Shown in pieces: positions 1 to 55,181 of a stretch of 64,000 bases of DNA. This stretch comes from a virus (taxonomy: Duplodnaviria > Heunggongvirae > Uroviricota > Caudoviricetes), in the IMG/VR virus record IMGVR_UViG_3300044675_003084, positions 1,378-65,377 of that record; one strand, 5' to 3'. The translations under genes and the position numbers were made by a program. Position 1 is the first letter of the stretch. Every line of letters starts with the position of its first letter. The notes beneath the pieces were generated by a model. That model made no database searches and had not been told where the DNA came from. It saw nothing but the letters and a program-made list of their open reading frames with translations.

Positions 1-417
1 AATGAATCGACAATGTTTACTAAATGTTTCCATTAGATTTCTAAGGATTGCTTGAGCTTGAGGAGTCATATAATCAAACTCATCTAAGATAACAATTTTT
101 ATATCTTTAAACCCAATTGTAGATGCAAATGATTTTACTTTATTACGGACAGTATCCACATTGTTTTCATCAGATGCGTTTAGTATCATAAAATCACAAT
201 TGATTGAATTGACAATTAACTTTGCAAGTGTAGTTTTTCCTGTTCCCGCTTTACCAAACAAAAGTAAATGTGGGACATCACCACTTTCAATATAATCACG
301 AATCTTTTGTTTTAAATGGTCATTACCAACATAATCCTCTAATTTCTTAGGACGATATTTTTCAACCCAAAGTGTATTTGGGGTTTCTTCTTTTATATTT
401 TCTTCAAAAAATGCCAT
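1..417 (-). CDS. Clamp-loader ATPase subunit (RFC small subunit / T4 gp44-like), N-terminal part; gene runs off the window start
   Basis: Reverse-complement translation from the ATG at 415-417 reads MAFFEENIKEETPNTLWVEKYRPKKLEDYVGNDHLKQKIRDYIESGDVPHLLLFGKAGTGKTTLAKL... This carries the RFC-box 'WVEKYRP' and a Walker A motif 'GKAGTGKTT'. It is absent from the ORF track because it is incomplete. Confidence 0.7.
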   Translation of the reverse strand, partial: MAFFEENIKEETPNTLWVEKYRPKKLEDYVGNDHLKQKIRDYIESGDVPHLLLFGKAGTGKTTLAKLIVNSINCDFMILNASDENNVDTVRNKVKSFASTIGFKDIKIVILDEFDYMTPQAQAILRNLMETFSKHCRFI

Positions 418-437
418 ATTATTTATTTTATACTCTA

Positions 438-469
438 CAAAGATACGAAATATTTTTCAAATTACCAAA
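438..469 (-). promoter_or_regulatory. Class-1 (early/middle) promoter-like motif upstream of the clamp-loader gene
   Basis: Plus strand reads caaagatacgaaatatttttcaaattaccaaa. In gene orientation this is TTTGGTAATTTGAAAAATATTTCGTATCTTTG, i.e. TTTG-N20-TAtcTTTG, which matches the Bacteroidetes sigma-A -33/-7 consensus. Confidence 0.45.
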
Positions 470-517
470 CAAAAATGGGAGAATTTTTCTCCCATTAATG
501 TTTAGTTTAAGATGTTA

Positions 518-3500
518 TTATCGTCCAAAGATATAACGAATACCTAATTGTGCACTCCATACATCAAATACTGATGAATTGTACTGATAAGTATCTCTAG
601 CTAAAATGGTAGAACCATCTGCTAATCTTTGAGTTGCTAATTTATAAACCGGTTCACCTGCTGCATTAGTAGATGAGTAGTTTAGAATTGTTGGAATAGT
701 TGCTCTTTGAGAAACACCCCACTCATTATTCAATAAGTTACCAAAGTTTAAGATATCAGCTCTAATTTGAATTGTATTCTTTTTACCTTTAACTTTTACA
801 TAAATGTCTTGTACTACTGATAAATCTAATCTATTCAACATAGGAATAAATGAACCATTTCTTTCAGCGTATTGACCTTTGCGAGAAGATAAGTACTCAT
901 CTTGTCCGATGTAAGAATCAAATGCTGCTTGTTGTTCAGCTTCAGTATAAGTTCTTGTACCTACTACCAATGGTGCGAATTTGATATCAGAACCTTTGTT
1001 TGGTACGAAGATTAATTCATTGTTAGAAATACGGTCTCCGTTCATATCACCACCAATTGTGTAAGAGAATGGGTTACCCTGATTTCCAACATAACCTAAT
1101 GTGAATGAAGTTGCTCCACCAAATCCTTTACCATATTCTAATCTATATCCTAACAAACCAACTAAACGATTTGGAGATAAGAAATCTGAATTAGAAAGAG
1201 ATAAATCATTATTACCATTTACACTTCTTGCACCTGTCCAACTACCACTAGCAATTGAACCTGCACTCATATAATCTATTGCGGTTGATGTAGTCCAAGC
1301 GAATGAACCGAATATACCTCTTTGGTAAGGATATTCCAACTTCAATGTTAATGAATTAAATAATGCATCTGATGTATTTGTTAATACAATTGCATTTGAA
1401 ACATTATCATTTACCCTAACACCATTATCGTTTCCTGCGAATTTAGCTCGTTGGTCAACTCCTACGAATTTACCAGTTGGAACTTCTAAGTTTGCACTAT
1501 AATAATGAACTGCGTTTAAATTTTGATTTACAATATATTCAGCAGTACCAATGAAACCAAATGGTAACTTTTGGTCAATTGCGATATTTGATTTCCAAAC
1601 TTGAGGGAATTTATAATTTACATCCGTAAATGCTAAATCAAATGTTGAAGGTAATGTTGGAGTTGAAGGAATAAAGTATTTGTTAGGGTCTGCAGTGAAA
1701 CCATATTTGGTTGCTGCTGCACCACTTGCATCAATATATCCTGTCAATACACCATTGTTACCCACTTGATTAGAGATAAACACATATGGAGGTCTGCCGG
1801 TAAAGATACCACTACCACCTCTTAATTGAGTCTTTCCATTACTGAATACATCGTGGTTAAATCCGAAACGAGGTTCGAATAAAGTTTGTGTTGATGGTAA
1901 TTTACCAGTATTAAATTTCTCTCCATTAGCAAATACCATTGCAGATACTGCTGGATTTTCTAACGCAGTTTGTTCGAATGAAATAACTGCTGCTCTTAAA
2001 CCAAAAGTGAACTTTAAGTTTTCAGTTGCTTGGAATTCATCTTGTGCATAAACATCCAATCTATCAGTTTTCAAAGTCTGCATTGGTTCAATTGCTCCCG
2101 GTAATGCCGAATAACGGAATTGGAAACGAGATGGAACTAATGTAGAAGGTGCACCACCATTTGCTAATGATTGATTAGCTGCGGTGTAGAAATCTGCTAA
2201 ACTATTGAAGATGTAAACACCATTAGATGCAGGGAAGAATAAGTTATTAGATTGATATTTCTCATAGTTGAAACCAAATGTCAAAGTGTGTTTATTTGCA
2301 TACTTTGTTAAGTTGTTTGTAATATGGAAAGTGTTATAATCTAACTTATTTCCTGGAGTGAAAGGGTCGAACCCTACCGATGTAAGAGTTGTTGCTCCTT
2401 CTTTAATATCAATCGTTGGGAACATTTGAGAACGATATGCTCTATCCTCAATTTGTTTATCATATCCAACAATTAAGTTGTTATGTAAAGTGTTTGATAA
2501 TTTAGAGTTCAATTCCAATACATAAGAACGAGTATTATCCATAATAATGTAACCACTATTTTGAAAACTCATTGCTAATGCTGATTGTGTTCTATTACCA
2601 AATCCTGCTGAAGTTGAGTTTGAAACGTTAATCTCTGCTTCAGAATCGTGGTGTACATAACGAGCCGTTAATTTATGTTTATCATTAATGTTCCAATCCA
2701 TACGAACCAAAAATTTGTTTGATTTGTTTGCGTTAGAATATCCTTCAAACGGGCCAGTTGTATAATTAAACTTATCTTGCATAAATTTAGATAAGTCCGA
2801 TAATTGTGTATAAGTTGGTCTACTGATTTGTGTACCCGTTGCAATTGGAGAACCAGTTGAAAACCATGTTGTACCCGGTTCAGTTCTTTCAATTGATTCG
2901 TAGTTACCAAAGATAAATAATTTGTTCTTAATGATTGGTGCACCTAAACGGAAACCTTGTACCTTCTCATCAAATTTAGATGCAGTTACTTTTGTTCCTC
3001 TAGCATTATCACCTACATATGTAGAACTATTATCTCTTTGTGTTTGATATACCGAACCTTCGATTTCATTTGTACCACTTCTTGTTACTGCGTTGATACC
3101 TGCACCGGTGAATCCACTTTGACGGATATCAAATGGGGCAATGTTAACTTGTAATTGCTCAATCGCATCTAAAGAGATTGCTGATGCTCCAGTTCTACCA
3201 CCTGCCTGTGCAGATGAGCCTAATCCGAATCCATTATTGAATTGAGAACCATCGATTGTAAAGTTATTCAAACGAGAATCTTGTGCTCCGAATGAGTTTC
3301 CGTTTCCGTTTGGATTGTACTTTGTAATACCATCAATTGTTCTTGCTCCCGTAATAGGAATATTTTGTAAATCTCTACGAGTAAATTGTTGAGATGCACC
3401 GGTTCTTTCTCTTGAAATAATATTATTTCTAGTAGAAAGTACAACAACCTCTTTTAAAATTTGATTTTCATCAATTAAAATAAAGTCTACATTTGATGTT

Positions 3501-3793
3501 ACACCTAATTGAGTGTTTACATCTTTCTCTTCACCTTTCTTAAATCCAATAAATGAAGCATGGATTGTGTATGGACCACCTACTCTTACTGCAGGTAATA
3601 CATAAACACCATTTTTGTTTGTAATCGAATGGTACTGAGTACCGGTTGGTGTGTGAGTAGCGTGAATTGCTGCACCTACTAACACTTCTTGCTTTTCATT
3701 CTTTACAACACCTGAAATAGTTGATGTGGTAACTTGACCAAATCCTACTAATGCAGATACTGAAAGGAGAAGCGATAAAATCACTTTTTTCAT
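518..3793 (-). CDS. TonB-dependent outer-membrane receptor-like protein (SusC/RagA-type), 1091 aa with signal peptide
   Basis: N-terminal signal peptide MKKVILSLLLSVSALVGFGQ. A carboxypeptidase-regulatory-like domain (ISGVVKNEKQEVLVGAAIHATHTPTGTQYHSITNKNGVYVL...) is followed by plug-like and long Gly/Asn/Tyr-rich beta-barrel sequence. The size is typical of Bacteroidetes TonB-dependent transporters. C-terminus is ...LGIRYIFGR. Confidence 0.6.
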   Translation of the reverse strand: MKKVILSLLLSVSALVGFGQVTTSTISGVVKNEKQEVLVGAAIHATHTPTGTQYHSITNKNGVYVLPAVRVGGPYTIHASFIGFKKGEEKDVNTQLGVTSNVDFILIDENQILKEVVVLSTRNNIISRERTGASQQFTRRDLQNIPITGARTIDGITKYNPNGNGNSFGAQDSRLNNFTIDGSQFNNGFGLGSSAQAGGRTGASAISLDAIEQLQVNIAPFDIRQSGFTGAGINAVTRSGTNEIEGSVYQTQRDNSSTYVGDNARGTKVTASKFDEKVQGFRLGAPIIKNKLFIFGNYESIERTEPGTTWFSTGSPIATGTQISRPTYTQLSDLSKFMQDKFNYTTGPFEGYSNANKSNKFLVRMDWNINDKHKLTARYVHHDSEAEINVSNSTSAGFGNRTQSALAMSFQNSGYIIMDNTRSYVLELNSKLSNTLHNNLIVGYDKQIEDRAYRSQMFPTIDIKEGATTLTSVGFDPFTPGNKLDYNTFHITNNLTKYANKHTLTFGFNYEKYQSNNLFFPASNGVYIFNSLADFYTAANQSLANGGAPSTLVPSRFQFRYSALPGAIEPMQTLKTDRLDVYAQDEFQATENLKFTFGLRAAVISFEQTALENPAVSAMVFANGEKFNTGKLPSTQTLFEPRFGFNHDVFSNGKTQLRGGSGIFTGRPPYVFISNQVGNNGVLTGYIDASGAAATKYGFTADPNKYFIPSTPTLPSTFDLAFTDVNYKFPQVWKSNIAIDQKLPFGFIGTAEYIVNQNLNAVHYYSANLEVPTGKFVGVDQRAKFAGNDNGVRVNDNVSNAIVLTNTSDALFNSLTLKLEYPYQRGIFGSFAWTTSTAIDYMSAGSIASGSWTGARSVNGNNDLSLSNSDFLSPNRLVGLLGYRLEYGKGFGGATSFTLGYVGNQGNPFSYTIGGDMNGDRISNNELIFVPNKGSDIKFAPLVVGTRTYTEAEQQAAFDSYIGQDEYLSSRKGQYAERNGSFIPMLNRLDLSVVQDIYVKVKGKKNTIQIRADILNFGNLLNNEWGVSQRATIPTILNYSSTNAAGEPVYKLATQRLADGSTILARDTYQYNSSVFDVWSAQLGIRYIFGR

Positions 3794-3930
3794 ACTTGTT
3801 TTGTTGTTTTAGTTAAAAAATAAATATTTGAGATTTACAACCCATTAGGTTGATTCGGTAATCGAATATTGTTATTATGATTTGATTTGATTTTCAAATC
3901 CTTCACTATCTATATTTTATATTAAATAAA

Positions 3931-4614
3931 TTATTTATTATATACAACAAATGTTGTTATTGCATATCTACCAATTCCACCTATTACTTTATTGACTTGA
4001 TGTTCAACATTTTTACCATTTTCTTTTAATGATATAACTACCACATTACCAAATATTGGTAATATCTCTTCAGTATTATCTAATTTTAAAACACCACCAT
4101 TATTTATATCATAAGTTTCATTTAAATAAATCATAATAGCACAAACTCTATTTAAATTATTTCCGTCTTTATGATTTACTATTTGACAACCATAATCAAA
4201 AAATGTTATATCGTTAACGAGTGATTGTAACTTAATAGACTCATCTATTGAGAATATTTTTTTACTAATATCGTATTTAATTTTTTGTATAGTGTTTCCA
4301 AATGGTAAATTATGATATTCGGCACGATACCAATTTTGAAAAGGTTGACCCTTTATTAATTTTAACTTTGTTAACATTGCCTTTTGAGCATCTTCAAATG
4401 AAGGATATCCTACACTATTTTCGTTTATCTTTGATTCATCGGGGTTATATGAACTTCCATCCAATCTAATCCCCGTCATTAAATGTTTTAAATTATTAAT
4501 TTCATTACATTTAAGGGGCAATAATTCATTATAATACTCTTCATTAAAATCTTTAAGATTAAATTGAGTATATCCTTTTATTTCTATATCTGATTGAAGT
4601 TTGTTAAATTGCAT
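3931..4614 (-). CDS. 2OG-Fe(II) oxygenase superfamily protein (prolyl-hydroxylase-like fold)
   Basis: HxD motif (NHKDG), hydrophobic core strand (RVCAIMIYLN...GGVLKL), distal His (NVEHQVNKV) and 2OG-binding Arg (GRYAITTFV) occur in canonical order. Confidence 0.5.
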   Translation of the reverse strand: MQFNKLQSDIEIKGYTQFNLKDFNEEYYNELLPLKCNEINNLKHLMTGIRLDGSSYNPDESKINENSVGYPSFEDAQKAMLTKLKLIKGQPFQNWYRAEYHNLPFGNTIQKIKYDISKKIFSIDESIKLQSLVNDITFFDYGCQIVNHKDGNNLNRVCAIMIYLNETYDINNGGVLKLDNTEEILPIFGNVVVISLKENGKNVEHQVNKVIGGIGRYAITTFVVYNK

Positions 4615-5146
4615 CGGTATTATATTTTGCTAATTCTTCCGGTGTTGCAAATGGTAGGGGTGGTTGTTCAGCCCAAAATTGTTTTTCCAAATCATCTAAT
4701 GATTCGCCTAATGATTGATTTATATTTTGTATAGTTGGAGAATTTGGGCCGTGTTCCGGTTTCCATGTTGAATTAGTATAACTCATTGTACTCCCACTTG
4801 GATACCCATATGCAGTTGATGTACTTCCAAATCCAAATGGTGGATTAGCTATTGTAATAGAACCACCACCAGGTGTTGTTGTTATTGTTGTACCATTTGT
4901 ATCCGGTTGTTGGCAAGTTATTTTATATGGATTATACGGGTCTACATAATGTGGATGTTGCCAAGTAGGGAACGGGTGTGTATTTGGTGCAGTATTCGGA
5001 ACTCCAAATGGAAATCCTATTGGTTCTTCATCTTTAACCTCTGCCAATTTATCTTTTAACAAATCCCATTGTTTTGGAGTGATATTAAATTCATGTACTC
5101 CCTCTGTGAATCCTTTTAACCAAAGGACAAATTCTTTTGATGTCAT
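4604..5146 (-). CDS. Hypothetical protein, Pro/Gly/Thr-rich central region
   Basis: Complete ORF with a 4-codon overlap to the downstream gene. No recognisable motifs. Confidence 0.3.
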   Translation of the reverse strand: MTSKEFVLWLKGFTEGVHEFNITPKQWDLLKDKLAEVKDEEPIGFPFGVPNTAPNTHPFPTWQHPHYVDPYNPYKITCQQPDTNGTTITTTPGGGSITIANPPFGFGSTSTAYGYPSGSTMSYTNSTWKPEHGPNSPTIQNINQSLGESLDDLEKQFWAEQPPLPFATPEELAKYNTDAI

Positions 5147-7526: not shown

Positions 7527-7564
7527 TGTTGTTTTTTTTTATTGTTTTAATTTATTGTAATTAC

Positions 7565-7597
7565 AAAGATACGAATAATTTTTGAATTATCCAAATT
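7565..7597 (-). promoter_or_regulatory. Class-1 promoter-like motif upstream of the sliding-clamp gene
   Basis: caaagatacgaataatttttgaattatccaaat. Gene orientation ATTTGGATAATTCAAAAATTATTCGTATCTTTG. Confidence 0.45.
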
Positions 7598-7601
7598 TAT
7601 T

Positions 7602-10109
7602 TTAAAAAGAAAAGAATTTTTCTGCATTTTTTTGTTCACTCATCACCTCACCCCAACCTAAAGCGTTATAGAAATCTTGTAATTTACCTTTTAATTCCGC
7701 TTCGAAGATTCGATTGTGGTCGGTATAAGTTGCAATGAAATCAACTATCTCATCGGGGTCGTCATATCCTGTGAATCCCAAACCATCAATTCCTAATGGA
7801 TTATTTTTAAGATAGACCCATTTGATTTTATCACCATCTTTCATCGGTGAATATTTGAATGGTGCTTTGAAGTGGGTTAGACAATCATTATATAGAATTG
7901 CTGCTTTAACGTGAGCAGGTGCACCTTTTTCCATATGGAATAGTTGCCTTTTCTTTGGTGAGTATTTTGAAAGGTTTTTAACTGCTGAGTTCTTTGCAAT
8001 TTCATGTATCGGTCTATCTACCATACTCTTTTTAAACGCAAGAACAAATGCCGTTAATTCCTCTTCAGATTTACCTTTTAGAATATCTATTAGAACTGTC
8101 CCCATACACTCCTGAAATGCTTTAGGGAATGATGACCTTCTTACATCCAATCCCTTTACATCCAATCTATCTACCGCAACACCATTATTTGAAATAATCC
8201 ATTGTGCATATCGTTTCTTCGCAATCCAAATACCTGCCCTAGCAACGTATTCCTTTTTAATTTCTAATCGATGATTTTGAACATTAAAGAATTTATCCGA
8301 AAGTATATCATAGAACTTATTTAGATAATCTTGCATTTCACCTGCGATACCATCTACCAAAACTGCAACTTCAGTATCCGGCATTTCTTTCCAATTCTTA
8401 TGTCTATGGTCTAATAAAGGTACTGCAGAAAAGAATACCGAATCCGTATCAATATAAATGTTAGAATCTACATCAGTTGTACCTAACTCTTTATTGTATT
8501 TGATGTTCCCCATATTCGCCGAGTTCTTAATAACCGTCTGACCTGTAGTCGTAACTGCCTCTGCATTATCAACATCGTAAAACCGAAAGGCAGGAAGACC
8601 AAGCACACCATAAAGAGAGTTAAGTAGAATTTTTTGAACCAACTGTCTTTTGCCGTAAAAGGCATATTTTTCTTTATCACCCTCTTTACCATACTTCTTT
8701 TCCAATTTTCTAAACTCCACCCTTTCATTGAACCAAATATCTAAAATTTCAGGAATACATCCTATTTTATCTTTACGATATAACACACCATTTGATGATA
8801 TTGTTAAATCTGCTTCTTTAATATATTTTTCTAAATTATCACGTGATATTTTATCATCACCCATTTGATAGTAATCAACCTCTCTCTTCATATATTTCTG
8901 AACATCCCAATCTGCAATTTTAGCAACTTTGGTTTCAGGAGAAATGTTGATTGTCATAATGATTGATGGGTATAGAGATGTTAAATCCAAATCATACACC
9001 CAATCATACTTACCCACAATCGGGTCTTTTACATACGCACCGATAAACTTTTCTTGTTCGTTATCTCTTAGGGCTTGCATCATTTCCTTACGGTCTGATG
9101 GTTTATTTGGAGCAACTAACCCCTTGCGTTTAAGGAAACATAACAATGCACCCTCCAAATATTTAGATGAATAAACGAAGTCCTCATAGGGAACGTGTCC
9201 TGCGTGACAGATACCTCTACATAAATCAATGAATTGTAATTTCTTATCTAACTCTACAACAATCTCAACATCGACTAAGTTATACTCAATGAACTTTTCA
9301 ATGTCTTCATTAAATAAATCATCCAATGAACCTTGATATTCAATCTTACCCTTATCTAATTCAATCGTACCAATGGTATCTAATCGATAGTTAGGTAATT
9401 CGTTGTAGTTAAATTTCTTATAGAGTGATAGGTAATCCAAACAACTTACTCCTGCAAAGAACCATCTTTGACGATATGGAGAATAAAATGCTTGACCAAT
9501 AGGTGATAACCTCTTTGCTTGAGATTCACCTAAGATGCGTTTCATTCGGTTGAATAGATACGGAATATCAAAGTTATCAATATTCCAACCAGTTAAAATA
9601 TCCGGTGCAATACCTTCATAAAGTTCTAAGAACTTCATACACATATCCCTTTCATCTCTGAATGGTAGAATGATTGCCTTATCGGTTTTTCTTTCCACCA
9701 TCTTACCTTTCTTATCCATAATCAATACCCAATATTGATTGGTGATATTGTCTTGTAGACCAATAGCGGTAAGTTCGTTTTCAGCTTTTTCGGTATCAGG
9801 TAATCCACTTTCCATTTCCACCTCAATATCGAATGTCATTGTTACGATGGTATCGGATGGGATATCAGAATCGGTATAAGTATCGACTAGGACACGAGTA
9901 GTTTCTGGTACATCAGATTCAAATAAATTCGGGTCATCCCCTTTGAATTTATAAATCTTAGTTAATTTATCACCATAAATAGAACGGGCTTCACCTCTCT
10001 CTGCTCTTTCGTATGCGTATCTCGTATATGGAAAAGTTCGGTAACCTAAATGAGAATCCCATAAATGTATAAGATTTCTTTCCCTCTGGTAATATATGTT
10101 TTTATACAT
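7602..10109 (-). CDS. Family B DNA polymerase with 3'-5' exonuclease domain
   Basis: Exo I 'FDIEVE', motif A 'DLDLTSLYPSII', motif B 'KILLNSLYGVLG' and motif C 'YIDTDSVF' are all present in order. Confidence 0.9.
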   Translation of the reverse strand: MYKNIYYQRERNLIHLWDSHLGYRTFPYTRYAYERAERGEARSIYGDKLTKIYKFKGDDPNLFESDVPETTRVLVDTYTDSDIPSDTIVTMTFDIEVEMESGLPDTEKAENELTAIGLQDNITNQYWVLIMDKKGKMVERKTDKAIILPFRDERDMCMKFLELYEGIAPDILTGWNIDNFDIPYLFNRMKRILGESQAKRLSPIGQAFYSPYRQRWFFAGVSCLDYLSLYKKFNYNELPNYRLDTIGTIELDKGKIEYQGSLDDLFNEDIEKFIEYNLVDVEIVVELDKKLQFIDLCRGICHAGHVPYEDFVYSSKYLEGALLCFLKRKGLVAPNKPSDRKEMMQALRDNEQEKFIGAYVKDPIVGKYDWVYDLDLTSLYPSIIMTINISPETKVAKIADWDVQKYMKREVDYYQMGDDKISRDNLEKYIKEADLTISSNGVLYRKDKIGCIPEILDIWFNERVEFRKLEKKYGKEGDKEKYAFYGKRQLVQKILLNSLYGVLGLPAFRFYDVDNAEAVTTTGQTVIKNSANMGNIKYNKELGTTDVDSNIYIDTDSVFFSAVPLLDHRHKNWKEMPDTEVAVLVDGIAGEMQDYLNKFYDILSDKFFNVQNHRLEIKKEYVARAGIWIAKKRYAQWIISNNGVAVDRLDVKGLDVRRSSFPKAFQECMGTVLIDILKGKSEEELTAFVLAFKKSMVDRPIHEIAKNSAVKNLSKYSPKKRQLFHMEKGAPAHVKAAILYNDCLTHFKAPFKYSPMKDGDKIKWVYLKNNPLGIDGLGFTGYDDPDEIVDFIATYTDHNRIFEAELKGKLQDFYNALGWGEVMSEQKNAEKFFSF

Positions 10110-11822: not shown

Positions 11823-12662
11823 CTAAAATTTGTAAATTCCCCCAATATTCCAGAATAGGATTGTACCCTCTATTTCATCTATGTTTTCCTCTAACCATTT
11901 CCATTGTTTTATATCCCAAAATTGGTTACAAGGAAACGGGGCTTCGTAACCATCTAATCTATTCTCAAATAGATACTCTGATTTTCGTATGTTTAATGGA
12001 ATCGGAATTCCACTCTTTTTAAGTGTTTTATTGATTGAACTAACCGATGATACACACGTTGTCCAAATCTTTCTTTTAACTTGTGGGAAAAACTCTTTAA
12101 GTTCCTCTCTATAATATCCTTTAGCAAGACCGGATAGGGTTACACCACTACCGGATGATACTACTAAATTATCAAAATGTGCGTATGGTTGAATTCTATC
12201 TGCAAGATAATCCTTATAGAAATCGTGGTCAAAAGCGTAAGGTAACATTTGCCATCCTTTTTCTCTTGCATCTTTCTTTAAGGAATTATACATAATTTGC
12301 ATCATATTAGGTCTAATAGGATATAGATTTGCTTTGGGATACATTTCCTTAATCAACCCCAAATACTCCTGTGATATCTTTTTAGAATCAGGGTGGGCTG
12401 CATAAAATTCAATATCCAATTGTTCACATATTGCTGCAAGTACCCATGCTGTCCAGCTTCCATCTACTGAAAGGTGAACCAATGGTTTACTTTTATCAAC
12501 ATACTTTTTAACTAATTCAAATACTGCTGCTATCTTACCCCAAGGCGGTAGTATTGTACCATCACCCATAAGGTCATCTCTTTTTACCCAAACTTCTCTA
12601 CCCTTAATATGGTAAAGTTCTAATGGGGTTTCTTCATTTAATCCTTTTAGTTTTAAATCCAT
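11823..12662 (-). CDS. Hypothetical enzyme, possibly PLP-dependent fold-type-II-like (ACC-deaminase/D-Cys desulfhydrase-like signature)
   Basis: 'VWVKRDDLMGDG...PPWGKIAAV' resembles the 'KRDDL...GGNK' signature of fold-type-II PLP enzymes. Overlaps the upstream AsnB-like gene by 10 nt, suggesting translational coupling. Assignment is tentative. Confidence 0.3.
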   Translation of the reverse strand: MDLKLKGLNEETPLELYHIKGREVWVKRDDLMGDGTILPPWGKIAAVFELVKKYVDKSKPLVHLSVDGSWTAWVLAAICEQLDIEFYAAHPDSKKISQEYLGLIKEMYPKANLYPIRPNMMQIMYNSLKKDAREKGWQMLPYAFDHDFYKDYLADRIQPYAHFDNLVVSSGSGVTLSGLAKGYYREELKEFFPQVKRKIWTTCVSSVSSINKTLKKSGIPIPLNIRKSEYLFENRLDGYEAPFPCNQFWDIKQWKWLEENIDEIEGTILFWNIGGIYKF

Positions 12663-14158
12663 TGGTAAATTCCTCCTGAGTTTGACGTCAATTCTCCTTT
12701 CATTTTTTTATGAGAGAACCCATGTATTTTTTCAAAGTTATCACCAATCACATGAATCATATTTTTTCTTTTCTTAAAATTAATAGATTCATCTTTTAAA
12801 ATGATTTCTTCGATGTATTGTTTAAAATTCGTTCCTTTTTGAAATGCCCTTTTTTCCTGGTCTAAAATATCATCAGGTAGTTTACCTCTGAATGCGTTAG
12901 CAAGTGGTAGTTTCCATTGTCCTCCTTTACATAAGAATTCATCAGTTAAGTTGGTAGTATAGTTTAGAAATTCAGTATCAAAGAATGGACATCTTAATTC
13001 AATTGTTCCATAATTCATAAAGATAGTATTACCTCTTAATAAGTTACCATAGTATTGTTTTTCAAATAACTTTTTACGAACATCACTCCAATCTGGTTTC
13101 TTACTGAACATACGGAATGTACCATACGAACCATATGATTCATCACTACCCTCACCACTAAATGCTACTTTGATTCCATCCTTTGCCATTTGTTCTGCAA
13201 TAAAGGATTGTAAGATACCCACTTCCATTTGAACGGTCGATGGGTATTCGATTACTCTAATTGAATCTAAAAATCTTTGTTTAATTATTTCCTCATCTTT
13301 AGGTACGAATACTTCAACTAATTCTATTCCCAAATATTCTGCACATACTCTTGCCTTTTGTAAATCTTTTGAGGTTTCATCAAATGCAATTGTGTATGCT
13401 TTTAGGTTGGGTATACGTTGTGATAGTAGGTAGGTAATAATTGCAGAATCGATACCACCACTTAGTGATGTAGCAATTGGTACATCTGATAATAATCTTT
13501 TATCTACTGCAGTTTCTAATAACTTAAATGTAGTTTCACCAACTTCTTCATGTGATGCCGGTATTGTTAGTTCGTTTGAAAATTGAAAATAGTAATCCTT
13601 ATGAACTACGATGGTATCGGTATCCAAATTAATTACTACTAATGAATTCTTAGGTACAAATTTAATATCTGAACTCTTTACTTGTGTTGTAATGGATTTG
13701 ATTTCACTAGCAACGATATAGTTGTTTGTATTGTGAATATAAAGGGGCAATTTACCCACCCAATCCCTCGATAGTATCAACTTATCATTATCATATATAA
13801 TGAATGAGAACATACCCTCTAATCTCTTTAATTCACCTTCTTTATAAAGATATAAAATGATTTCTGAATCTGAGTTGGATTTAAAATGATATCCTCTACC
13901 TTCGTATTCTTTACGCAATTGAGGATAGTTCCAAATCTCACCATTTACTACCAATTCAACACCATCCCACTCCATTGGTTGATTACCCAATGGTGATGTA
14001 TCATTGATTGATAATCGATTATGTCCTAATATAATTAGTTTATCTCTATATTGGAATTCTTTAATACCACGATTATCTCTGCCACGATGCTCAATTGCTT
14101 CGAGCATTACATTCACATCATCTCTTTTATAACCAATCGTTGCTACAATTCCACACAT
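12653..14158 (-). CDS. Asparagine synthetase B-like class II glutamine amidotransferase
   Basis: N-terminal nucleophile 'MCGIV', glutaminase-domain sequence, and PP-loop 'SLSGGIDSAII' of the AsnB synthetase domain. 501 aa. Confidence 0.8.
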   Translation of the reverse strand: MCGIVATIGYKRDDVNVMLEAIEHRGRDNRGIKEFQYRDKLIILGHNRLSINDTSPLGNQPMEWDGVELVVNGEIWNYPQLRKEYEGRGYHFKSNSDSEIILYLYKEGELKRLEGMFSFIIYDNDKLILSRDWVGKLPLYIHNTNNYIVASEIKSITTQVKSSDIKFVPKNSLVVINLDTDTIVVHKDYYFQFSNELTIPASHEEVGETTFKLLETAVDKRLLSDVPIATSLSGGIDSAIITYLLSQRIPNLKAYTIAFDETSKDLQKARVCAEYLGIELVEVFVPKDEEIIKQRFLDSIRVIEYPSTVQMEVGILQSFIAEQMAKDGIKVAFSGEGSDESYGSYGTFRMFSKKPDWSDVRKKLFEKQYYGNLLRGNTIFMNYGTIELRCPFFDTEFLNYTTNLTDEFLCKGGQWKLPLANAFRGKLPDDILDQEKRAFQKGTNFKQYIEEIILKDESINFKKRKNMIHVIGDNFEKIHGFSHKKMKGELTSNSGGIYQWI

Positions 14159-16126: not shown

Positions 16127-16159
16127 TATATTTTATCAAAGATACGAAAAATATTCCGT
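16127..16159 (-). promoter_or_regulatory. Class-1 promoter-like motif upstream of the methyltransferase/TS/AsnB cassette
   Basis: caaagatacgaaaaatattccgtatttccaaat. Confidence 0.45.
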
Positions 16160-25111: not shown

Positions 25112-25144
25112 CAAAGATACGAATAATATTTTGTATTACCAAAT
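25112..25144 (-). promoter_or_regulatory. Class-1 promoter-like motif upstream of the 24611..25084 ORF
   Basis: caaagatacgaataatattttgtattaccaaat. Confidence 0.45.
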
Positions 25145-29380: not shown

Positions 29381-30046
29381 CTATTTTTGTTTGAATTTAA
29401 ATCCTGTTAGTTTTTCAATATCCGAAACCTCTACTTTGTTATTATTTATACCATCCGGTTTAGATAAGTCGTTCTCAAATAAAAACGCAAACCATTCCTT
29501 ATTTCTAACTACATAAAAAACTTTCCAACATTGTGTCGGTACGGAAATCTTTCCTATCTTTTTTAACTCGCCCACATTTCCTGCCCAGATATGAACTGAA
29601 TCTGATATTAGAGCAACATCTCTTGTTAGGGTTTCTAAGGATTTCCAGTCTCCCGCATTCAATCTATGGTATTGTGCTACCATATTTGAATAATAGAAAC
29701 TTTCATCTTGTATCGCCGGAGTTTGACATTGATTTGATTTTGCCGGCATTAGATGACCTCTATCAAATCCACTTCCTACATAATCCGTTCCAATATCGGT
29801 TTCGTTTGGTAAAAGGGGGTCGGGTTTAAAATTATCTTTACGTGGAATCGGATTTGGACAACCAATTTTTGCTTTGGTTTCCCACCATTCTACTAAGACA
29901 GGATATCTTTTTGATTTACTAAAGTGTGTTGTGTAATTTGTGTGTTTTAAAACCACTACATCTTGTGCGAATGTTACAATTGTAACGAATGATAGCATCA
30001 ACGTCATTAACGTAATCCCCACTATTGTCCCTAAATTTTTTCTCAT
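29381..30046 (-). CDS. Secreted DNA/RNA non-specific endonuclease (Serratia/EndoG family)
   Basis: Signal peptide/TM 'IVGITLMTLMLSFVTIVTFAQ' and the DRGH active-site motif 'GFDRGHLMPA' characteristic of beta-beta-alpha-Me non-specific nucleases. Confidence 0.75.
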   Translation of the reverse strand: MRKNLGTIVGITLMTLMLSFVTIVTFAQDVVVLKHTNYTTHFSKSKRYPVLVEWWETKAKIGCPNPIPRKDNFKPDPLLPNETDIGTDYVGSGFDRGHLMPAKSNQCQTPAIQDESFYYSNMVAQYHRLNAGDWKSLETLTRDVALISDSVHIWAGNVGELKKIGKISVPTQCWKVFYVVRNKEWFAFLFENDLSKPDGINNNKVEVSDIEKLTGFKFKQK

Positions 30047-31344: not shown

Positions 31345-31379
31345 CAAAGATACGAAAATTTATTTAGATTTCCAATTTT
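31345..31379 (-). promoter_or_regulatory. Class-1 promoter-like motif upstream of the PolA-like ORF
   Basis: caaagatacgaaaatttatttagatttccaatttt. Confidence 0.4.
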
Positions 31380-35016: not shown

Positions 35017-35793
35017 TTATTCTCCCCAATGTTTTTGTCTTAATTCGTACATATCGATAGCCTCTCTTTTCATCTGATTTCCGGTATGAAAATATGCACC
35101 TTCTTTAAGATACCCACCTAAGAAATTTCTTCTCATTCTCGTGGTATCTCCGTTTGGTTCACTACCATGTACTACGTGTGAGTGTAAAAGGGCAACTTGT
35201 CCTTTTTTAAGATATCCCTCAACCTTACGGAAATCGTGGCCTTCTGGCATTACACAACTCTTACCTCTTTCACTTCTCCAGTTATCAGTATTTGTTGCTT
35301 TTCTCTCTTCGTTATCTTCAATTGGTAATGTAGGTAATCGGTGAGAACCTTCGTAGTTCCATACTGCCCCATTTTCAGGGTCGTGATTATCCAAAGCCAA
35401 CGCAGTATTGATAATTTCATTATGACCACAACCAGTATAGAATGCGTTTTGATGCATATCTCTACCCAATTCACCTTTTGGTTTGTAATAACCCCAAGTT
35501 TGTAAACCCACTACACTCCCTTCCATTAGGAATTCTGCTGCTTCCATAATTTTTGGATGTGAAAATAATTTAGCAATTTTTTCTGAATCTCTATGTGGAT
35601 ACATAATAGGTTCAAACTCTTGCCATTTTCCTGGTTCTCTTTCATTACGTTCTACACGTAAACGGTCTAATTCTTCGTTGATTTCATCTACTTCAGTTTC
35701 AGTTAATAATTCCAAAACTGTGAAGCCTCGGTATCTCCAATCAAATGACATTTGTTGAAGTTCTTCCGTTGTAAGGTGTTTGTATTTTTGCAT
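35017..35793 (-). CDS. Phytanoyl-CoA dioxygenase (PhyH)-like 2OG-Fe(II) oxygenase
   Basis: C-terminal 'LLHSHVVHGSEPNGDTTRMRR' matches the PhyH 'HGSxxNxSxxxR' signature. A candidate upstream metal-binding motif is near 'DMHQN'/'GHNE'. A TATAAATAT box lies upstream and a terminator downstream. Confidence 0.5.
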   Translation of the reverse strand: MQKYKHLTTEELQQMSFDWRYRGFTVLELLTETEVDEINEELDRLRVERNEREPGKWQEFEPIMYPHRDSEKIAKLFSHPKIMEAAEFLMEGSVVGLQTWGYYKPKGELGRDMHQNAFYTGCGHNEIINTALALDNHDPENGAVWNYEGSHRLPTLPIEDNEERKATNTDNWRSERGKSCVMPEGHDFRKVEGYLKKGQVALLHSHVVHGSEPNGDTTRMRRNFLGGYLKEGAYFHTGNQMKREAIDMYELRQKHWGE

Positions 35794-44598: not shown

Positions 44599-44826
44599 TC
44601 TTACACCTGGCCCTTTTGATGGTTGGTTAGTTTTTTGTGCTTTATTTGCATTATCACTTTCTCGTTTCTTTGTATCTACCAATTCTTTGTAATAAAAATT
44701 TCTTAAATGAACTGGTAATCTATATACATCGGATTGAATAAATCCATTCCCGTGATAACATAATTCAAAAATTTGTTTATGCAATAAAACGGAATAATTA
44801 CTCGGTAGGCCAAAAAAAGCTAACAC
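44587..44826 (-). CDS. ORF in the +1 frame overlapping the 3' end of the preceding gene (possible frameshift extension)
   Basis: Begins with GTG inside the T7 run shared with the 251-aa ORF. A strong terminator hairpin covers its stop. Confidence 0.25.
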   Translation of the reverse strand: MLAFFGLPSNYSVLLHKQIFELCYHGNGFIQSDVYRLPVHLRNFYYKELVDTKKRESDNANKAQKTNQPSKGPGVRVRK

Positions 44827-45553
44827 CCATTGTAATAGGTCTTACCTCCGTTTCTCCTGTTTCAGGATTTGTGTAATCAAATTCCATTTTGATATCCGGT
44901 TGTAAATTTTTTACATATTCTCTAAATCCTTTAGTATCTCTAGCAAGGAATTTATTATTAATAAAATCAGTTATAGATTTAGTGTCTTCTTTACCATCTA
45001 CCGATTGTATCATATAACGATAACGGGTGGTTAATTCACTACCCATCGAATCTTTGTTTAATCTTTTTAAAGCATTAACATCGGCATCAATTCTTTTTTC
45101 ATCACCATGTGTTAATAGTTTAAAAACTAATACATTTCCAGTTGATGTTGTGAATTGATAACGATTTTCAGTATTTAACTTTGAATAATCAATGTCTTTT
45201 GTTTGAACTTTACCTAAATCAACAGTAACTTGTTGTTTGGTATCATTATCATCTAATATTTCAATCTTATATTCTGGTCCATATCCTAAGATACGAGTTG
45301 CTAACATAATAGCGTTTTTATCACCCAAAAGAATATCATCTGGATTTACTTTCTTATCTACTATAATTGCTTCGAATAATTTATCTAATACTACACCTTT
45401 TTTAATCAAACTTTGAGATGAAAGAATTTCTTCCTCTCTTGCCGTCATATATTTTAATTCGATGTTACCACTTGATAATGGATTTGTTTCTGGATAGCAT
45501 TTACCTTGAGATGGTAATCCAACTATCTCCGTTGAGAATTCGTATTGTGACAT
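44798..45553 (-). CDS. Hypothetical tail-associated protein (251 aa) between tube and tape measure
   Basis: Position typical of a tail assembly chaperone. Ends '...GVSFFWPTE' across a TTTTTTT run. Confidence 0.3.
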   Translation of the reverse strand: MSQYEFSTEIVGLPSQGKCYPETNPLSSGNIELKYMTAREEEILSSQSLIKKGVVLDKLFEAIIVDKKVNPDDILLGDKNAIMLATRILGYGPEYKIEILDDNDTKQQVTVDLGKVQTKDIDYSKLNTENRYQFTTSTGNVLVFKLLTHGDEKRIDADVNALKRLNKDSMGSELTTRYRYMIQSVDGKEDTKSITDFINNKFLARDTKGFREYVKNLQPDIKMEFDYTNPETGETEVRPITMGVSFFWPTE

Positions 45554-45659: not shown

Positions 45660-46148
45660 TTAGAATTCAAGTATTGCATAATCATAAGCTAACGTTAATG
45701 TAATCTCTGCAGGGTCATTTGATGTCCAATCTAACTCACCGAATTGTGCGTTTAAGATAAATGCACCTTTAAGTTTCCAGTTTTCAATTTTATCACCTAC
45801 TGGTCCTAACATATAGATATCGATATCTTTTTTGTAGAAATCTGCATATCCATCACGTCCTGTTAGGGATTCATGTGAAGTTCTAACCCACTCCATTACT
45901 GCCTGTGCACCTGATGGTACGATTGGGTCATATAATGTGATTTCTAAATCTTGCCATTCACCTTTACCTTTCAACTTTCTTTTTAAGTTGATGTGTTCTA
46001 ATGTTACAGCTTCAAACTGAATGTTTGGTCTGTTACCTGCTTTGATAAGATATGAAGGGATACCAGCGATTTCCATGATGAAACGATTTTTCATCTTTGG
46101 TTCAAAGTTGGTATAGAACATTTCGTTAAACTCTAATATTTCTGCCAT
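45660..46148 (-). CDS. Tail tube protein (gp19-like)
   Basis: 162 aa, immediately downstream of the sheath gene and followed by a terminator. Predicted beta-rich. Confidence 0.6.
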   Translation of the reverse strand: MAEILEFNEMFYTNFEPKMKNRFIMEIAGIPSYLIKAGNRPNIQFEAVTLEHINLKRKLKGKGEWQDLEITLYDPIVPSGAQAVMEWVRTSHESLTGRDGYADFYKKDIDIYMLGPVGDKIENWKLKGAFILNAQFGELDWTSNDPAEITLTLAYDYAILEF

Positions 46149-54536: not shown

Positions 54537-55181
54537 TTAAATTGAACCACCATCTATGTTTGTAATTGTTGTTGCATTTGCTGTTCCTGTCACATCTCCA
54601 CTCAAAGTTATTTGAGCCGAACCACTAAATACACCAAGTACATTTACTTGATTTGTTACAGCCGTACTTAATCCAGTAACATTACCGGAATCAATCGAAC
54701 CACTAACTATATGACCACCTTTTGCTACAACTACATAACCACTTCTAGCAGATTCAAATGTAATTGTTATATTATTATTATCGGTATGTCTTAATGTTGA
54801 TGGGATTATTTGGTATCCATCAGTATCAAACACTTGTGCAATTGCGTTAGGTGTACTCAAATTATGATTTACAACCCACGTAGATGATGCAGTAAATGTT
54901 CGTTGAACTGTTGCCGTTTGAGCAATTGTTACGTTTTCTAATGCACTACCATCACCTTTAAAGTACGAAGCGGTAATTGAACCAGTTATATTAAGGTTAC
55001 CCGCTATAGCAGTTGCAGTATTAGTTGTTACTAATGTTTCTACGGAATCAACTGAACCGGATTTTCTAAAGAATACCTTTCCGTCTACAACGTTCATTGC
55101 TATCTCACCATATTGTAATGAGCCAGTGGTAGGTATACTTCCAGGTGTAGTGGACCTTTTAAATTTAATTATTTGTGCCAT
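54537..55181 (-). CDS. Short tail-fibre-like protein with the shared N-terminal anchor motif
   Basis: 'MAQIIKFKRSTTPGSIPTTGSLQYGEIAMNVVDGKVFF' plus one copy of the 'IIPSTL...SARSGYVVVAKGGHIVSGS' module. Confidence 0.5.
   Translation of the reverse strand: MAQIIKFKRSTTPGSIPTTGSLQYGEIAMNVVDGKVFFRKSGSVDSVETLVTTNTATAIAGNLNITGSITASYFKGDGSALENVTIAQTATVQRTFTASSTWVVNHNLSTPNAIAQVFDTDGYQIIPSTLRHTDNNNITITFESARSGYVVVAKGGHIVSGSIDSGNVTGLSTAVTNQVNVLGVFSGSAQITLSGDVTGTANATTITNIDGGSI

What the first reader, a model, noticed from the sequence alone, without database searches (positions are those of the whole stretch)
518..3793. Full-length TonB-dependent receptor (SusC-like) gene embedded inside the phage replication module
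A 1091-aa ORF with a Bacteroidetes-type signal peptide, a carboxypeptidase-regulatory-like N-terminal domain and a long beta-barrel region sits between the clamp-loader gene and phage accessory genes. It is on the same strand, has the same AT-rich composition, and a class-1 phage promoter motif lies immediately downstream at 438-469. No SusD partner and no integrase or att-like flank is visible, so it looks phage-borne rather than host flank. A phage-encoded outer-membrane transporter could remodel the infected cell surface, for example by superinfection exclusion through receptor competition or nutrient/siderophore uptake during infection. It might also be a virion-associated beta-barrel. Either would be unusual.
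Basis: partly seen in the sequence, partly recalled or inferred. Interest (0 to 1): 0.7.

Follow-up and report, generated by a model that had tools for sequence, protein, structure and literature searches.

The report
Phage-carried host-derived TonB-dependent outer-membrane transporter
A freshwater virus of Bacteroidota carries an intact copy of its host's outer-membrane nutrient-import channel as an optional gene cassette, a rarely noted kind of host-derived phage gene, here seen in about 80 related viral contigs.

The parts
518..3793 (-). Complete CDS of the phage-borne Oar-type TonB-dependent transporter (1091 aa)
   Evidence: ORF. Pfam CarboxypepD_reg and PF25183. AF2 pLDDT 91.3. TBDT fold. 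The identical protein is on 10 contigs.
3734..3793 (-). Signal peptide (aa 1-20, MKKVILSLLLSVSALVGFGQ)
   Evidence: Positive n-region plus hydrophobic core (heuristic). Low-pLDDT helix at aa 2-12. Aligned with the signal peptides of bacterial orthologues.
3476..3721 (-). N-terminal extension, CarboxypepD_reg fold (aa 25-106)
   Evidence: Pfam E 9e-17. Family profile matches the solved N-terminal domains 9hfj and 6ytc. This is the most variable and most recombined part of the gene.
3425..3460 (-). Flexible linker holding the putative TonB box (aa 112-123, ILKEVVVLSTRN)
   Evidence: The only low-pLDDT internal segment. The L-x-E-V-V-V motif is kept in phage and bacterial homologues.
3074..3424 (-). 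Plug domain (about aa 124-240)
   Evidence: Family profile matches the Cir plug at E 2.7e-11. Nearly invariant in both phage and bacterial copies. The Pfam Plug model itself gives no hit.
527..3061 (-). Beta-barrel (about aa 245-1089) ending in the beta-signal LGIRYIF, followed by GR
3794..3930 (-). Leader between the oxygenase gene and the TBDT. The distal part is a remnant of the 3' end of the upstream 180-aa gene. The proximal part, TTATTTTTTAAC...AAAACAAGT-ATG, is shared with most other phage copies.
   Evidence: Sequence. Comparison of upstream regions across loci. No Rfam match. The motif is not a general promoter of this phage.
474..496 (-). Intrinsic terminator directly after the TBDT stop codon (10-bp stem followed by a T-rich tail)
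   Evidence: Terminator scan. The same hairpin follows the gene in the relatives L007, L093, L127 and L144.
438..469 (-). Bacteroidota-type promoter (TTTGG, about 19 nt, TTCGTATCTTTG) that serves the clamp-loader gene. It is part of the inserted cassette.
   Evidence: Motif recurs upstream of genes. It is absent from the TBDT-less variants L169, L232 and L237, where the oxygenase stop codon abuts the clamp-loader start.
1..417 (-). 5' part of the clamp-loader (AAA+, DNA_pol3_delta2) gene. It forms the conserved right flank of the variable island.
   Evidence: Sequence. Pfam domains of the full 315-aa gene in L001. 98-100% identical in the TBDT-less variants.
3931..4614 (-). 2OG-Fe(II) oxygenase gene, another variable member of the same island
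   Evidence: Pfam. Only 42-57% identical in phages whose flanks are 98-100% identical, and absent in L003 and L005.
7564..7595 (-). Nearest upstream Bacteroidota-type promoter (before the sliding-clamp gene). It is the inferred start of the transcript that runs through to the terminator at 496-474.
   Evidence: Exact 12-mer at 7564-7575. No convincing intergenic terminator between it and position 496. Co-transcription is an inference only.

Best explanation
The gene is a real, intact, host-derived TonB-dependent outer-membrane transporter. It has the Oar architecture: a CarboxypepD_reg N-terminal extension, a TonB box, a plug and a 22-strand-type barrel of family PF25183. It is carried as an optional, self-contained cassette (leader, gene, terminator, downstream promoter) in a hypervariable island of the replication module. 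The phage is a T4-like freshwater myovirus that most likely infects Sediminibacterium or related Chitinophagaceae.

Proposed mechanism (inferred):
1. Host RNA polymerase transcribes the gene together with the replication genes, from a Bacteroidota-type promoter.
2. The precursor is exported by Sec and inserted by the host BAM machinery through its C-terminal beta-signal.
3. The host TonB-ExbBD complex energises it through the conserved TonB box.
4. It then does what the host orthologue does, importing a still unknown substrate, so that uptake capacity rises during infection.

This makes it an auxiliary gene of the same logic as cyanophage psbA or pstS, and like psbA it recombines with host and other phage alleles.

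Shown: identity, fold, phage residence, host origin, purifying selection, mosaicism and presence/absence polymorphism.
Inferred: expression, membrane insertion, direction of transport, substrate and benefit to the phage.
For: Identity and fold:
- Pfam, family profile against PDB plug and N-terminal domains, AF2 pLDDT 91.3.

Phage residence:
- The identical protein is on 10 contigs, with the same phage flanks at the six places read.
- 79 IMG/VR loci carry copies.
- All viral loci form one flank-sharing component of 87 loci, separate from the bacterial loci.
- The window also encodes a tail sheath, a long tail fibre, RNR and PolB.

Host origin:
- The closest cellular homologues (73-75%) are in Sediminibacterium MAGs and on a 5.26-Mb Bacteroidetes contig. 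Their neighbours are bacterial: SusC/SusD, GH32, DAO.
- In the bootstrap NJ tree the window clade groups with the Sediminibacterium clade (85%). Phage loci L095/L096 are sister to bacterial L011-L015 (100%).
- Bacteroidota-type promoters precede the phage replication genes.

The gene is kept functional:
- dN/dS is 0.07-0.15 between most phage copies (0.22 for the mosaic L001-L144 pair) and 0.09-0.12 between bacterial copies.
- Per-site variability in phage and bacterial copies correlates (r 0.67), and the plug is nearly invariant in both.
- The TonB-box motif, the lengths (1089-1092 aa) and the C-terminal beta-signal are conserved.

Repeated acquisition:
- A second, independent phage clade (L161-L168, 37% identity) is also PF25183-type by sequence similarity to the query family and its place in the family tree.

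Mosaicism:
- L144 is 91% identical at nucleotide level to L007 over codons 1-110, but 89-90% identical to L133/L009 over the barrel. The window shows the converse pattern.

Optional cassette:
- L169, L232, L237 and L249-L252 have PolB, clamp, MTase and clamp loader about 98-100% identical to the window but no TBDT.

Precedent:
- A putative TBDT was listed as an auxiliary metabolic gene in megaphage Mar_Mega_1 and in LR745206 (PMC9723777). It is the only TBDT-fold protein found in BFVD.
Against: - No expression, localisation or transport data exist.
- The substrate is unknown. Bacterial orthologues have no conserved neighbours, no riboswitch and no folded leader.
- Outer-membrane barrels are stable, so the 'replace a fast-turnover host protein' argument used for psbA does not carry over. 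The benefit must come from extra capacity, which is untested.
- No recognisable promoter lies directly upstream. In most other phages a hairpin with a T-run precedes the gene, so expression level and timing are uncertain.
- The gene is dispensable, since near-identical phages lack it.
- Whether the phage also needs or encodes TonB/ExbBD could not be checked beyond the 64-kb window.
Confidence: 0.6

Rival explanations
1. Surface remodelling or superinfection control. The phage-made barrel changes the infected cell's surface so that competing or sister phages adsorb or inject less well. It could do this by displacing or diluting the host allele that serves as a phage receptor, or by titrating TonB.
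For: - TBDTs are classic phage and colicin receptors (general knowledge). The nearest solved folds, Cir and FusA, are colicin/bacteriocin receptors.
- The TBDT evolves faster than core genes. L144 has PolB 93% identical to the window's but a TBDT only 76% identical.
- Alleles are shuffled by recombination.
- Most of the variable segments outside the signal peptide and N-terminal domain lie in predicted extracellular loops.
- Presence/absence polymorphism fits frequency-dependent selection.
Against: - Phage copies keep every loop and the same length as host copies.
- The L095 barrel is 78-96% identical to a host barrel in 50-residue bins, mostly 88-96%.
- The variability profile mirrors that of the bacterial copies (r 0.67).
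- Making more of a receptor-like protein would attract, not repel, phages that use it.
- The strictly conserved plug and TonB box argue that transport itself is under selection.
Confidence: 0.2
2. Outward transport. Like Myxococcus Oar, which is required for secretion of the protease PopC, the phage TBDT could export a phage periplasmic protein across the outer membrane. The candidate cargo is the signal-peptide-bearing non-specific nuclease.
For: - It has the same domain architecture as Oar: a PF13620 N-terminal extension, a plug and a barrel (PMC6434023).
- UniRef names the Flavobacterium orthologue 'Oar protein'.
- The TBDT and the nuclease (29381-30046) are the only two signal-peptide proteins in the window.
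- Nuclease homologues lie 1-2 genes downstream of the TBDT in 15 of 82 viral loci.
Against: - In this window the nuclease gene is 25 kb away.
- Where the two genes are adjacent, a terminator separates them.
- Host orthologues have no nuclease partner.
- The Oar architecture is the commonest TBDT architecture in Bacteroidetes, and most such proteins are importers (PMC6434023).
Confidence: 0.06
3. Passenger DNA. The gene was picked up from the host by illegitimate recombination, is neutral for the phage and is on its way to being lost.
For: - Near-identical phages lack it.
- It sits in a hypervariable island where other genes also come and go.
Against: - dN/dS of 0.07-0.15 was measured across synonymous divergences of dS 0.15 to 0.7 within phages.
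- All full-length phage copies aligned have intact reading frames. The remaining viral copies are cut by contig ends.
- The gene is retained in several deeply diverged phage lineages, including 260-320 kb genomes.
- There were at least three to five independent phage-host exchanges of the same TBDT family.
- Composition is fully ameliorated to the phage.
Confidence: 0.08
4. Artefact or structural protein. Either the region is host DNA joined to phage DNA by misassembly, or the protein is a virion component.
For: None found.
Against: - The same junctions appear in assemblies from six different samples.
- Leader, terminator and promoter are conserved with relatives at 88% protein identity.
- GC and GC3 equal those of the phage.
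- The fold is a plugged transmembrane barrel with a Sec signal and a beta-signal.
- PHROGs finds no viral structural family.
Confidence: 0.02

Closest known systems
Chromosomal Oar-type TonB-dependent transporters of Sediminibacterium/Chitinophagaceae, with more distant orthologues in Flavobacterium, Saprospiraceae and Cytophagales
   Same: - 73-75% identical over the full length, with the same length, domain order, TonB-box motif, plug and C-terminal ...RYIF-G(K/R).
- Same selective constraints.
- The sequences interleave in the tree.
   Different: - The window's gene is encoded in a phage genome, between phage replication genes.
- It has a phage-specific leader and terminator instead of the host TAnnTTTG promoter and roughly 95-nt leader.
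- Its N-terminal domain follows a phage-specific history.
Myxococcus xanthus Oar (TBDT required for PopC secretion; PMC6434023)
   Same: Same architecture: signal peptide, CarboxypepD_reg N-terminal extension, TonB box and plug, 22-strand barrel. Annotators call the Flavobacterium orthologue 'Oar protein'.
   Different: No direct sequence comparison with Oar was made here. Oar works outward with a dedicated Ton system. No such partner or cargo has been identified for the phage protein.
SusC/RagA-family TBDTs of Bacteroidota polysaccharide and peptide utilisation loci
   Same: - Same type of N-terminal extension (family profile hits 9hfj and 6ytc).
- Same host phylum.
   Different: - No SusD/RagB lipoprotein gene next to it, in phage or in bacteria.
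- No NCBIfam family model matched, so no SusC/RagA model did.
- The barrel belongs to PF25183.
- SusC structures are not the best structural matches.
Putative TonB-dependent receptor (SusC) of marine megaphage Mar_Mega_1 and of huge phage LR745206 (PMC9723777)
   Same: A full-length TBDT encoded by a large phage and interpreted as an auxiliary metabolic gene for uptake. It is the only TBDT-fold hit among the BFVD viral structures (A0A8D9FQQ5, E 3.4e-28).
   Different: - Only 10% identity and 805 aa, so it is a different TBDT family and an independent acquisition.
- Marine megaphage rather than freshwater T4-like or jumbo phages.
- That paper reports no population, phylogenetic or recombination analysis.
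Cyanophage host-derived auxiliary genes (psbA, pstS) in hyperplastic regions of T4-like genomes (own knowledge)
   Same: A host-derived gene kept under purifying selection, variably present among close relatives, located between conserved core modules, with intragenic recombination between host and phage alleles.
   Different: The product is an outer-membrane barrel that must pass through Sec and BAM. It does not turn over rapidly. The substrate is unknown.
Outer-membrane proteins encoded by lambdoid phages: Lom, Bor and the porins Lc/NmpC (own knowledge)
   Same: Phage 'moron' cassettes with their own transcription signals that place a beta-barrel or lipoprotein in the host outer membrane.
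   Different: Those are small barrels or general porins of temperate phages, expressed from prophages. This is a 1091-aa energised transporter in an apparently lytic T4-like phage. No integrase was seen in the window, though this was not searched exhaustively.
Solved TBDTs Cir, FusA and YddB
   Different: Sequence identity is 10-16%. These proteobacterial structures did not align to the N-terminal extension (528 to 676 of 1091 residues aligned). Their substrates (catecholate iron, ferredoxin) cannot be transferred to this protein.

Membership tests
TonB-dependent outer-membrane transporter superfamily | N-terminal Sec signal peptide | tested here: met
   MKKVILSLLLSVSALVGFGQ has a KK n-region and a hydrophobic core (heuristic). 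It aligns with the signal peptides of bacterial orthologues.
TonB-dependent outer-membrane transporter superfamily | TonB box in a flexible segment before the plug | tested here: inconclusive
   A conserved L-x-E-V-V-V motif lies in the only disordered internal segment, aa 112-123. Binding to TonB was not tested.
TonB-dependent outer-membrane transporter superfamily | Globular plug domain filling the barrel | tested here: met
   The Pfam Plug model fails. However, the family profile matches the Cir plug at E 2.7e-11, the model aligns with whole TBDTs, and the segment is nearly invariant.
TonB-dependent outer-membrane transporter superfamily | 22-stranded transmembrane beta-barrel | tested here: met
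TonB-dependent outer-membrane transporter superfamily | C-terminal beta-signal ending in an aromatic residue | tested here: inconclusive
   The protein ends LGIRYIF-GR. The Phe is conserved but is followed by 2 residues. Host orthologues do the same, while other family members end at the Phe. Xanthomonas TBDRs with 1-4 extra residues are described (PMC1790865).
TonB-dependent outer-membrane transporter superfamily | Transport energised by TonB-ExbB-ExbD | not testable with these tools
   Needs genetics or biochemistry.
Oar-type TBDT (N-terminal-extension subclass; Pfam PF13620/PF13715 plus PF25183) | CarboxypepD_reg-like N-terminal extension between signal peptide and plug | tested here: met
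   PF13620 E 9e-17 and PF13715 E 7e-11. Beta-sandwich at aa 24-106 in the model. The definition of the subclass comes from PMC1790865 and PMC6434023.
Oar-type TBDT (N-terminal-extension subclass; Pfam PF13620/PF13715 plus PF25183) | Barrel of family PF25183 (OMP_b-brl_4) | tested here: met
   E 1.5e-55, 189 bits against a cut-off of 30, profile positions 1-810 of 838.
Oar-type TBDT (N-terminal-extension subclass; Pfam PF13620/PF13715 plus PF25183) | Protein export function as in M. xanthus Oar | not testable with these tools
   No cargo has been identified. Adjacency to a nuclease gene in 15 of 82 loci is only suggestive.
SusC/RagA family | Adjacent SusD/RagB lipoprotein gene | tested here: not met
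   The neighbours are an oxygenase and a clamp loader. None of the common neighbour families that were scanned, in 82 viral and 79 bacterial loci, is SusD.
SusC/RagA family | Match to the SusC/RagA family models | tested here: not met
   NCBIfam scan at E<=0.01 returns no family.
Phage auxiliary (host-derived) gene / moron | Encoded inside a phage genome with phage genes on both sides, reproducibly | tested here: met
Phage auxiliary (host-derived) gene / moron | Closest relatives are cellular genes of the presumed host lineage | tested here: met
   Sediminibacterium orthologues at 73-75%, grouped with 85% bootstrap support. Their contexts were verified as bacterial.
Phage auxiliary (host-derived) gene / moron | Maintained by purifying selection in phages | tested here: met
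   dN/dS 0.07-0.15 between most phage copies, 0.22 for one mosaic pair.
Phage auxiliary (host-derived) gene / moron | Discrete insertion with its own transcription signals between genes that are adjacent in relatives | tested here: met
   L169, L232 and L237 lack the leader, gene, terminator and promoter. In them the oxygenase stop codon abuts the clamp-loader start. Terminator and promoter were mapped.
Phage auxiliary (host-derived) gene / moron | Expressed during infection and beneficial to the phage | not testable with these tools
   Needs transcriptomics, proteomics or a cultured phage-host pair.

The most novel reading that the evidence does not exclude
The phage TBDT may work outward, as Myxococcus Oar does for PopC. 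It would form a phage-encoded outer-membrane exit for a phage periplasmic protein. The obvious candidate is the signal-peptide-bearing non-specific nuclease, which lies next to the TBDT in many related phages. An infected Bacteroidota cell would then secrete a nuclease without the type IX system, for example to scavenge extracellular nucleic acid or to clear DNA-rich debris. The evidence does not exclude this. It rests only on shared architecture, on these being the only two exported proteins in the window, and on gene adjacency in 15 of 82 viral loci.
Probability: 0.06. Interest if true: 0.85.

Novelty: new member of a known kind. Interest (0 to 1): 0.58.

Why it matters
Uptake across the outer membrane is a main trait by which Bacteroidota compete for organic matter in lakes. 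A widespread group of large freshwater phages carries, swaps and recombines one particular transporter with its hosts. If those phages also express it, they alter what infected cells take up, and they act as a reservoir and shuttle for alleles of a host surface protein. That parallels cyanophage psbA but applies to nutrient import.

The natural TBDT-plus and TBDT-minus variants, which differ by little else, give a ready-made comparison for testing the benefit. The repeated capture of the same Oar-type family points to a substrate that limits phage production. Identifying it would also assign a function to a very large, uncharacterised transporter family: 15,537 representative clusters at E<=0.001.

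Tried and rejected
- The Pfam Plug and TonB_dep_Rec models, NCBIfam and PHROGs give no hit for this protein. The plug had to be shown by a family profile and by structure.
- phmmer against PDB found nothing.
- INPHARED has no near-DNA match to the window. It has only one weak protein hit, a 6-kb faecal 'Bacteriophage sp.' record at 32%. No cultured relative therefore carries the gene.
- Substrate clues all came up empty:
  - Bacterial neighbours are not conserved across lineages.
  - Rfam finds no riboswitch upstream of the bacterial or phage genes.
  - The conserved Sediminibacterium leader has no consensus fold.
- Promoter of the TBDT itself: neither the Bacteroidota-type motif nor the TATATTTATA motif is convincingly present. 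The conserved TTATTTTTTAAC leader occurs only once in the window.
- I first took the AAATCAAATC repeat in the leader for a relic of the host 5' UTR. I rejected this because it is the 3' end of the upstream 180-aa gene, as seen intact in L003 and L005.
- Codon usage cannot separate phage from host, because both are AT-rich.
- Literature searches for freshwater or Bacteroidota phage TBDTs found only the Mar_Mega_1 note.
The loop assignments are from DSSP spacing only.

Full report
**1. The observation**

Window 518-3793 on the minus strand is an uninterrupted 1091-codon ORF. Pfam places a CarboxypepD_reg domain at residues 25-106 (E 9e-17) and the outer-membrane barrel family PF25183 at residues 236-1022 (E 1.5e-55).

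The Pfam Plug model, NCBIfam and PHROGs are silent, so the plug had to be shown another way. A profile of 99 diverse family members matches the plug of the colicin I receptor at E 2.7e-11. It also matches two solved N-terminal domains of Bacteroides TBDTs.

- FusA, E 1.9e-33.

The protein ends ...LGIRYIF-GR. The conserved Phe of the beta-signal is therefore followed by two residues, exactly as in the closest bacterial orthologues.

**2. Surroundings**

All genes of the window are on the minus strand. Moving downstream from the ORF:
- a strong terminator at 496-474;
- a promoter-like motif at 469-438;
- the start of a clamp-loader gene at 417.

Upstream lie a 2OG-Fe(II) oxygenase, a 180-aa protein, a DNA methyltransferase, a sliding-clamp-like protein and a family B polymerase. 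Further on are ribonucleotide reductase, a tail sheath and a long tail fibre. The window is therefore part of a T4-like myovirus.

The motif TTTGG, about 19 nt, TTCGTATCTTTG matches the Bacteroidota -33/-7 promoter pattern (TTTG...TAnnTTTG, established knowledge). It recurs before replication genes. There are 5 exact copies of the 12-mer, and 23 matches with up to 2 mismatches against 9.2 expected. A second motif, TATATTTATA, precedes structural genes.

GC and GC3 of the ORF equal those of the other phage genes. Only two proteins in the window have signal peptides: this one and a secreted non-specific nuclease at 29381-30046.

**3. It is phage-borne**

- The identical protein lies on 10 contigs. 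At the six places read, which come from six samples, the clamp loader follows the gene wherever the downstream gene carries a domain annotation.
- Copies 87-91% identical lie on contigs of 199 to 324 kb. In close relatives the order PolB, clamp, TBDT, GroEL, clamp loader is syntenic.
- IMG/VR yields 79 loci.
- I clustered the flanking ORFs of all 168 loci. Every viral locus, plus one contig mis-binned into a 'Cyanobium' MAG, falls into a single component of 87 loci. This component shares no flanking families with the bacterial loci.
- No record in the INPHARED phage collection (50,697 records) has a related gene.

**4. Origin and evolution**

In a scan of one genome per GTDB species, the nearest cellular homologues (73-75%) are in Sediminibacterium MAGs and on a 5.26-Mb Bacteroidetes contig. 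Flavobacterium, Saprospiraceae and Cytophagales follow at 47-62%. I verified that these contexts are bacterial: SusC/SusD pair, GH32, phosphoglucose isomerase. There is no conserved neighbour, so in bacteria it is a stand-alone gene.

In a bootstrapped NJ tree:
- The window's clade of 10 phage sequences groups with the Sediminibacterium clade (85%).
- Two phage sequences (L095/L096) sit inside that clade, as sister to L011-L015 (100%).
- Other phage clades of 29, 9 and 3 sequences branch outside.

A further phage clade (L161-L168, 37% identity) sits near other Chitinophagaceae sequences. Phages and hosts have therefore exchanged this transporter family several times.

Trees of the N-terminal 125 residues and of the barrel disagree. 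Nucleotide identities show clear mosaics:
- L144 is 91% identical to L007 over codons 1-110, but 89-90% identical to L133/L009 over the barrel.
- The window is 86% identical to L098 at the N-terminus, but 87% identical to L007 over the barrel.
- The L095 barrel is host-like and its N-terminus is phage-like.

The breakpoint region coincides with the almost invariant plug.

Selection is purifying. dN/dS is 0.07-0.15 among most phage copies and 0.09-0.12 among bacterial copies. Site-by-site variability correlates between the two sets (r 0.67), and the plug is nearly frozen in both.

**5. An optional cassette**

I fetched relatives through PolB. Three viral contigs from three samples (L169, L232, L237) have PolB, clamp, methyltransferase and clamp loader 98-100% identical to the window but no TBDT. 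In them the oxygenase stop codon abuts the clamp-loader start.

A junction-neutral 32-mer scan of JGI metagenomes found four more TBDT-less contigs and one TBDT-bearing contig.

The window therefore carries an insertion of about 3.5 kb made of leader, gene, terminator and a promoter that re-supplies the clamp loader. The same terminator and promoter follow the gene in the relatives at 88-89% identity, where they precede GroEL.

The island is hypervariable as a whole. The oxygenase is only 42-57% identical between phages whose flanks are nearly identical. This is the anatomy of a moron or auxiliary gene in a hyperplastic region of a T4-like genome (comparison from established knowledge).

**6. 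How it most likely works**

Shown: an intact, constrained transporter of host type in a phage.

Inferred steps:
- In this window no convincing terminator lies between the Bacteroidota-type promoter at about 7595-7564 and the terminator at 496-474. The gene is therefore probably the last gene of a replication-gene transcript made by host polymerase.
- The precursor would use Sec, BAM and the host TonB complex.
- The phage copies keep every loop, the TonB-box motif and the plug, and some barrels are about 90% identical to host barrels. The simplest reading is that they perform the host protein's transport reaction and add uptake capacity during infection.

The substrate is unknown. Neighbours, riboswitch searches and leader folding gave nothing.

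I put about 0.95 on 'genuine phage-borne functional TBDT of host origin'. I put about 0.55-0.6 on the import-boosting mechanism.

**7. Rivals**

- *Surface remodelling or superinfection control (0.2).* It fits the fast allele turnover and the polymorphism. It is weakened by the host-like loops and by the strict conservation of the transport machinery.
- *Export in the manner of Myxococcus Oar (0.06).* It is suggested by the shared architecture (PMC6434023) and by a secreted nuclease gene next to the TBDT in 15 of 82 viral loci. In this window the two genes are 25 kb apart, and the host orthologues have no such partner.
- *Neutral passenger (0.08).* It is contradicted by purifying selection, repeated capture and retention in deep lineages.
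- *Chimera or virion protein (0.02).* It is refuted by the independent junctions and by the fold.

**8. Comparison with what is known**

The protein is a member of the TBDT superfamily and of the Oar-type subclass as defined by Koebnik-type N-terminal extensions (PMC1790865; PMC6434023). UniRef names the Flavobacterium orthologue 'Oar protein'.

It fails two defining tests for SusC/RagA: it has no SusD partner and no family-model match.

A phage-encoded TBDT is not without precedent. Mar_Mega_1 and LR745206 carry a putative SusC-type receptor, which was listed as an auxiliary metabolic gene (PMC9723777). That protein is the only TBDT fold among the BFVD viral structures and is 10% identical to this one.

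The following seem not to be described in the literature I could search:
- this transporter family in phages;
- its spread over about 80 freshwater viral contigs;
- the repeated host-phage exchange and the mosaic alleles;
- the presence/absence polymorphism within one phage species.

**9. Verdict**

It is a new member of a known kind (host-derived auxiliary gene or moron encoding an outer-membrane protein), not a new kind of system. Interest is moderate to good (0.58). The natural plus and minus variants and the host-phage recombination make the biology directly testable.

Noticed in passing
window 29381-30046 (-): A 221-aa secreted non-specific nuclease (Endonuclease_NS type, DRGH motif, signal peptide ending FAQ). 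It is the only other exported protein in the window. Its homologues lie 1-2 genes downstream of the TBDT in 15 of 82 related viral loci, often after an AAA_28 kinase-like gene.
   Followed up: partly
window 438-469, 7564-7595, 16137-16148, 25112-25123, 31345-31356 (- strand): A Bacteroidota-type promoter motif (TTTGG, about 19 nt, TTCGTATCTTTG) recurs before replication-module genes. It implies that host RNA polymerase reads these genes and supports a Bacteroidota host.
   Followed up: partly
window intergenic regions upstream of 35017-35793, 44798-45553, 45660-46148, 46203-48551, 53193-54494 and 55165-60165 (-): A second conserved motif (TATATTTATA) precedes structural genes (tail sheath, tail fibre). 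It is a candidate late promoter, reminiscent of the T4 late promoter TATAAATA.
   Followed up: no
window 420-5146; loci L169, L232, L237, L249-L252, L003, L005: The stretch between the methyltransferase and the clamp loader is a hypervariable island. Among phages with 98-100% identical flanks, the 180-aa gene is about 70% identical, the 2OG-Fe(II) oxygenase is 42-57% identical or absent, and the TBDT is present or absent.
   Followed up: yes
L161-L168 (IMG/VR; for example a 274-kb contig, L165 8001-11255): Related viral contigs carry a different TBDT of the same family, only 37% identical. It groups with other Chitinophagaceae/Bacteroidetes sequences, which indicates an independent capture.
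   Followed up: partly
L057 (GTDB CAYNGR010000116.1, labelled uncultured Cyanobium sp.): This 10-kb contig in a cyanobacterial MAG carries the phage-type TBDT (74%) with phage-type flanks. It is almost certainly a mis-binned phage contig.
   Followed up: partly
L007 13372-14991, L009 13458-15080, L001 15759-16067: These phages encode GroEL (Cpn60) and GroES (Cpn10). GroEL lies immediately downstream of the TBDT in 17 loci. In relatives with PolB 89-90% identical to the window's, it sits directly after PolB instead.
   Followed up: no
L011-L019, about 140 nt upstream of the bacterial orthologues: The Sediminibacterium orthologues share a TAnnTTTG -7 box followed by a conserved leader of about 95 nt (ATTTTAACAAG.TTTTGGCAAAT...). 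It has no Rfam match and no consensus fold. The phage leader begins with a similar TTTTAAC, roughly where the host transcript would start.
   Followed up: partly
window 7602-10109 (-): In the phage collection, the family B polymerase is closest (51.5%) to that of Microcystis phage Mel-JY01. It is only about 33% identical to the polymerases of T4-like cyanophages. This lineage of T4-like phages therefore has no close cultured relative.
   Followed up: no
window 12653-14158 (-) and L001/L007 flanks: Further host-like genes are in the same module: asparagine synthase, thioredoxin, a radical SAM protein, an NAD-dependent epimerase, glycosyltransferases and dUTPase.
   Followed up: no
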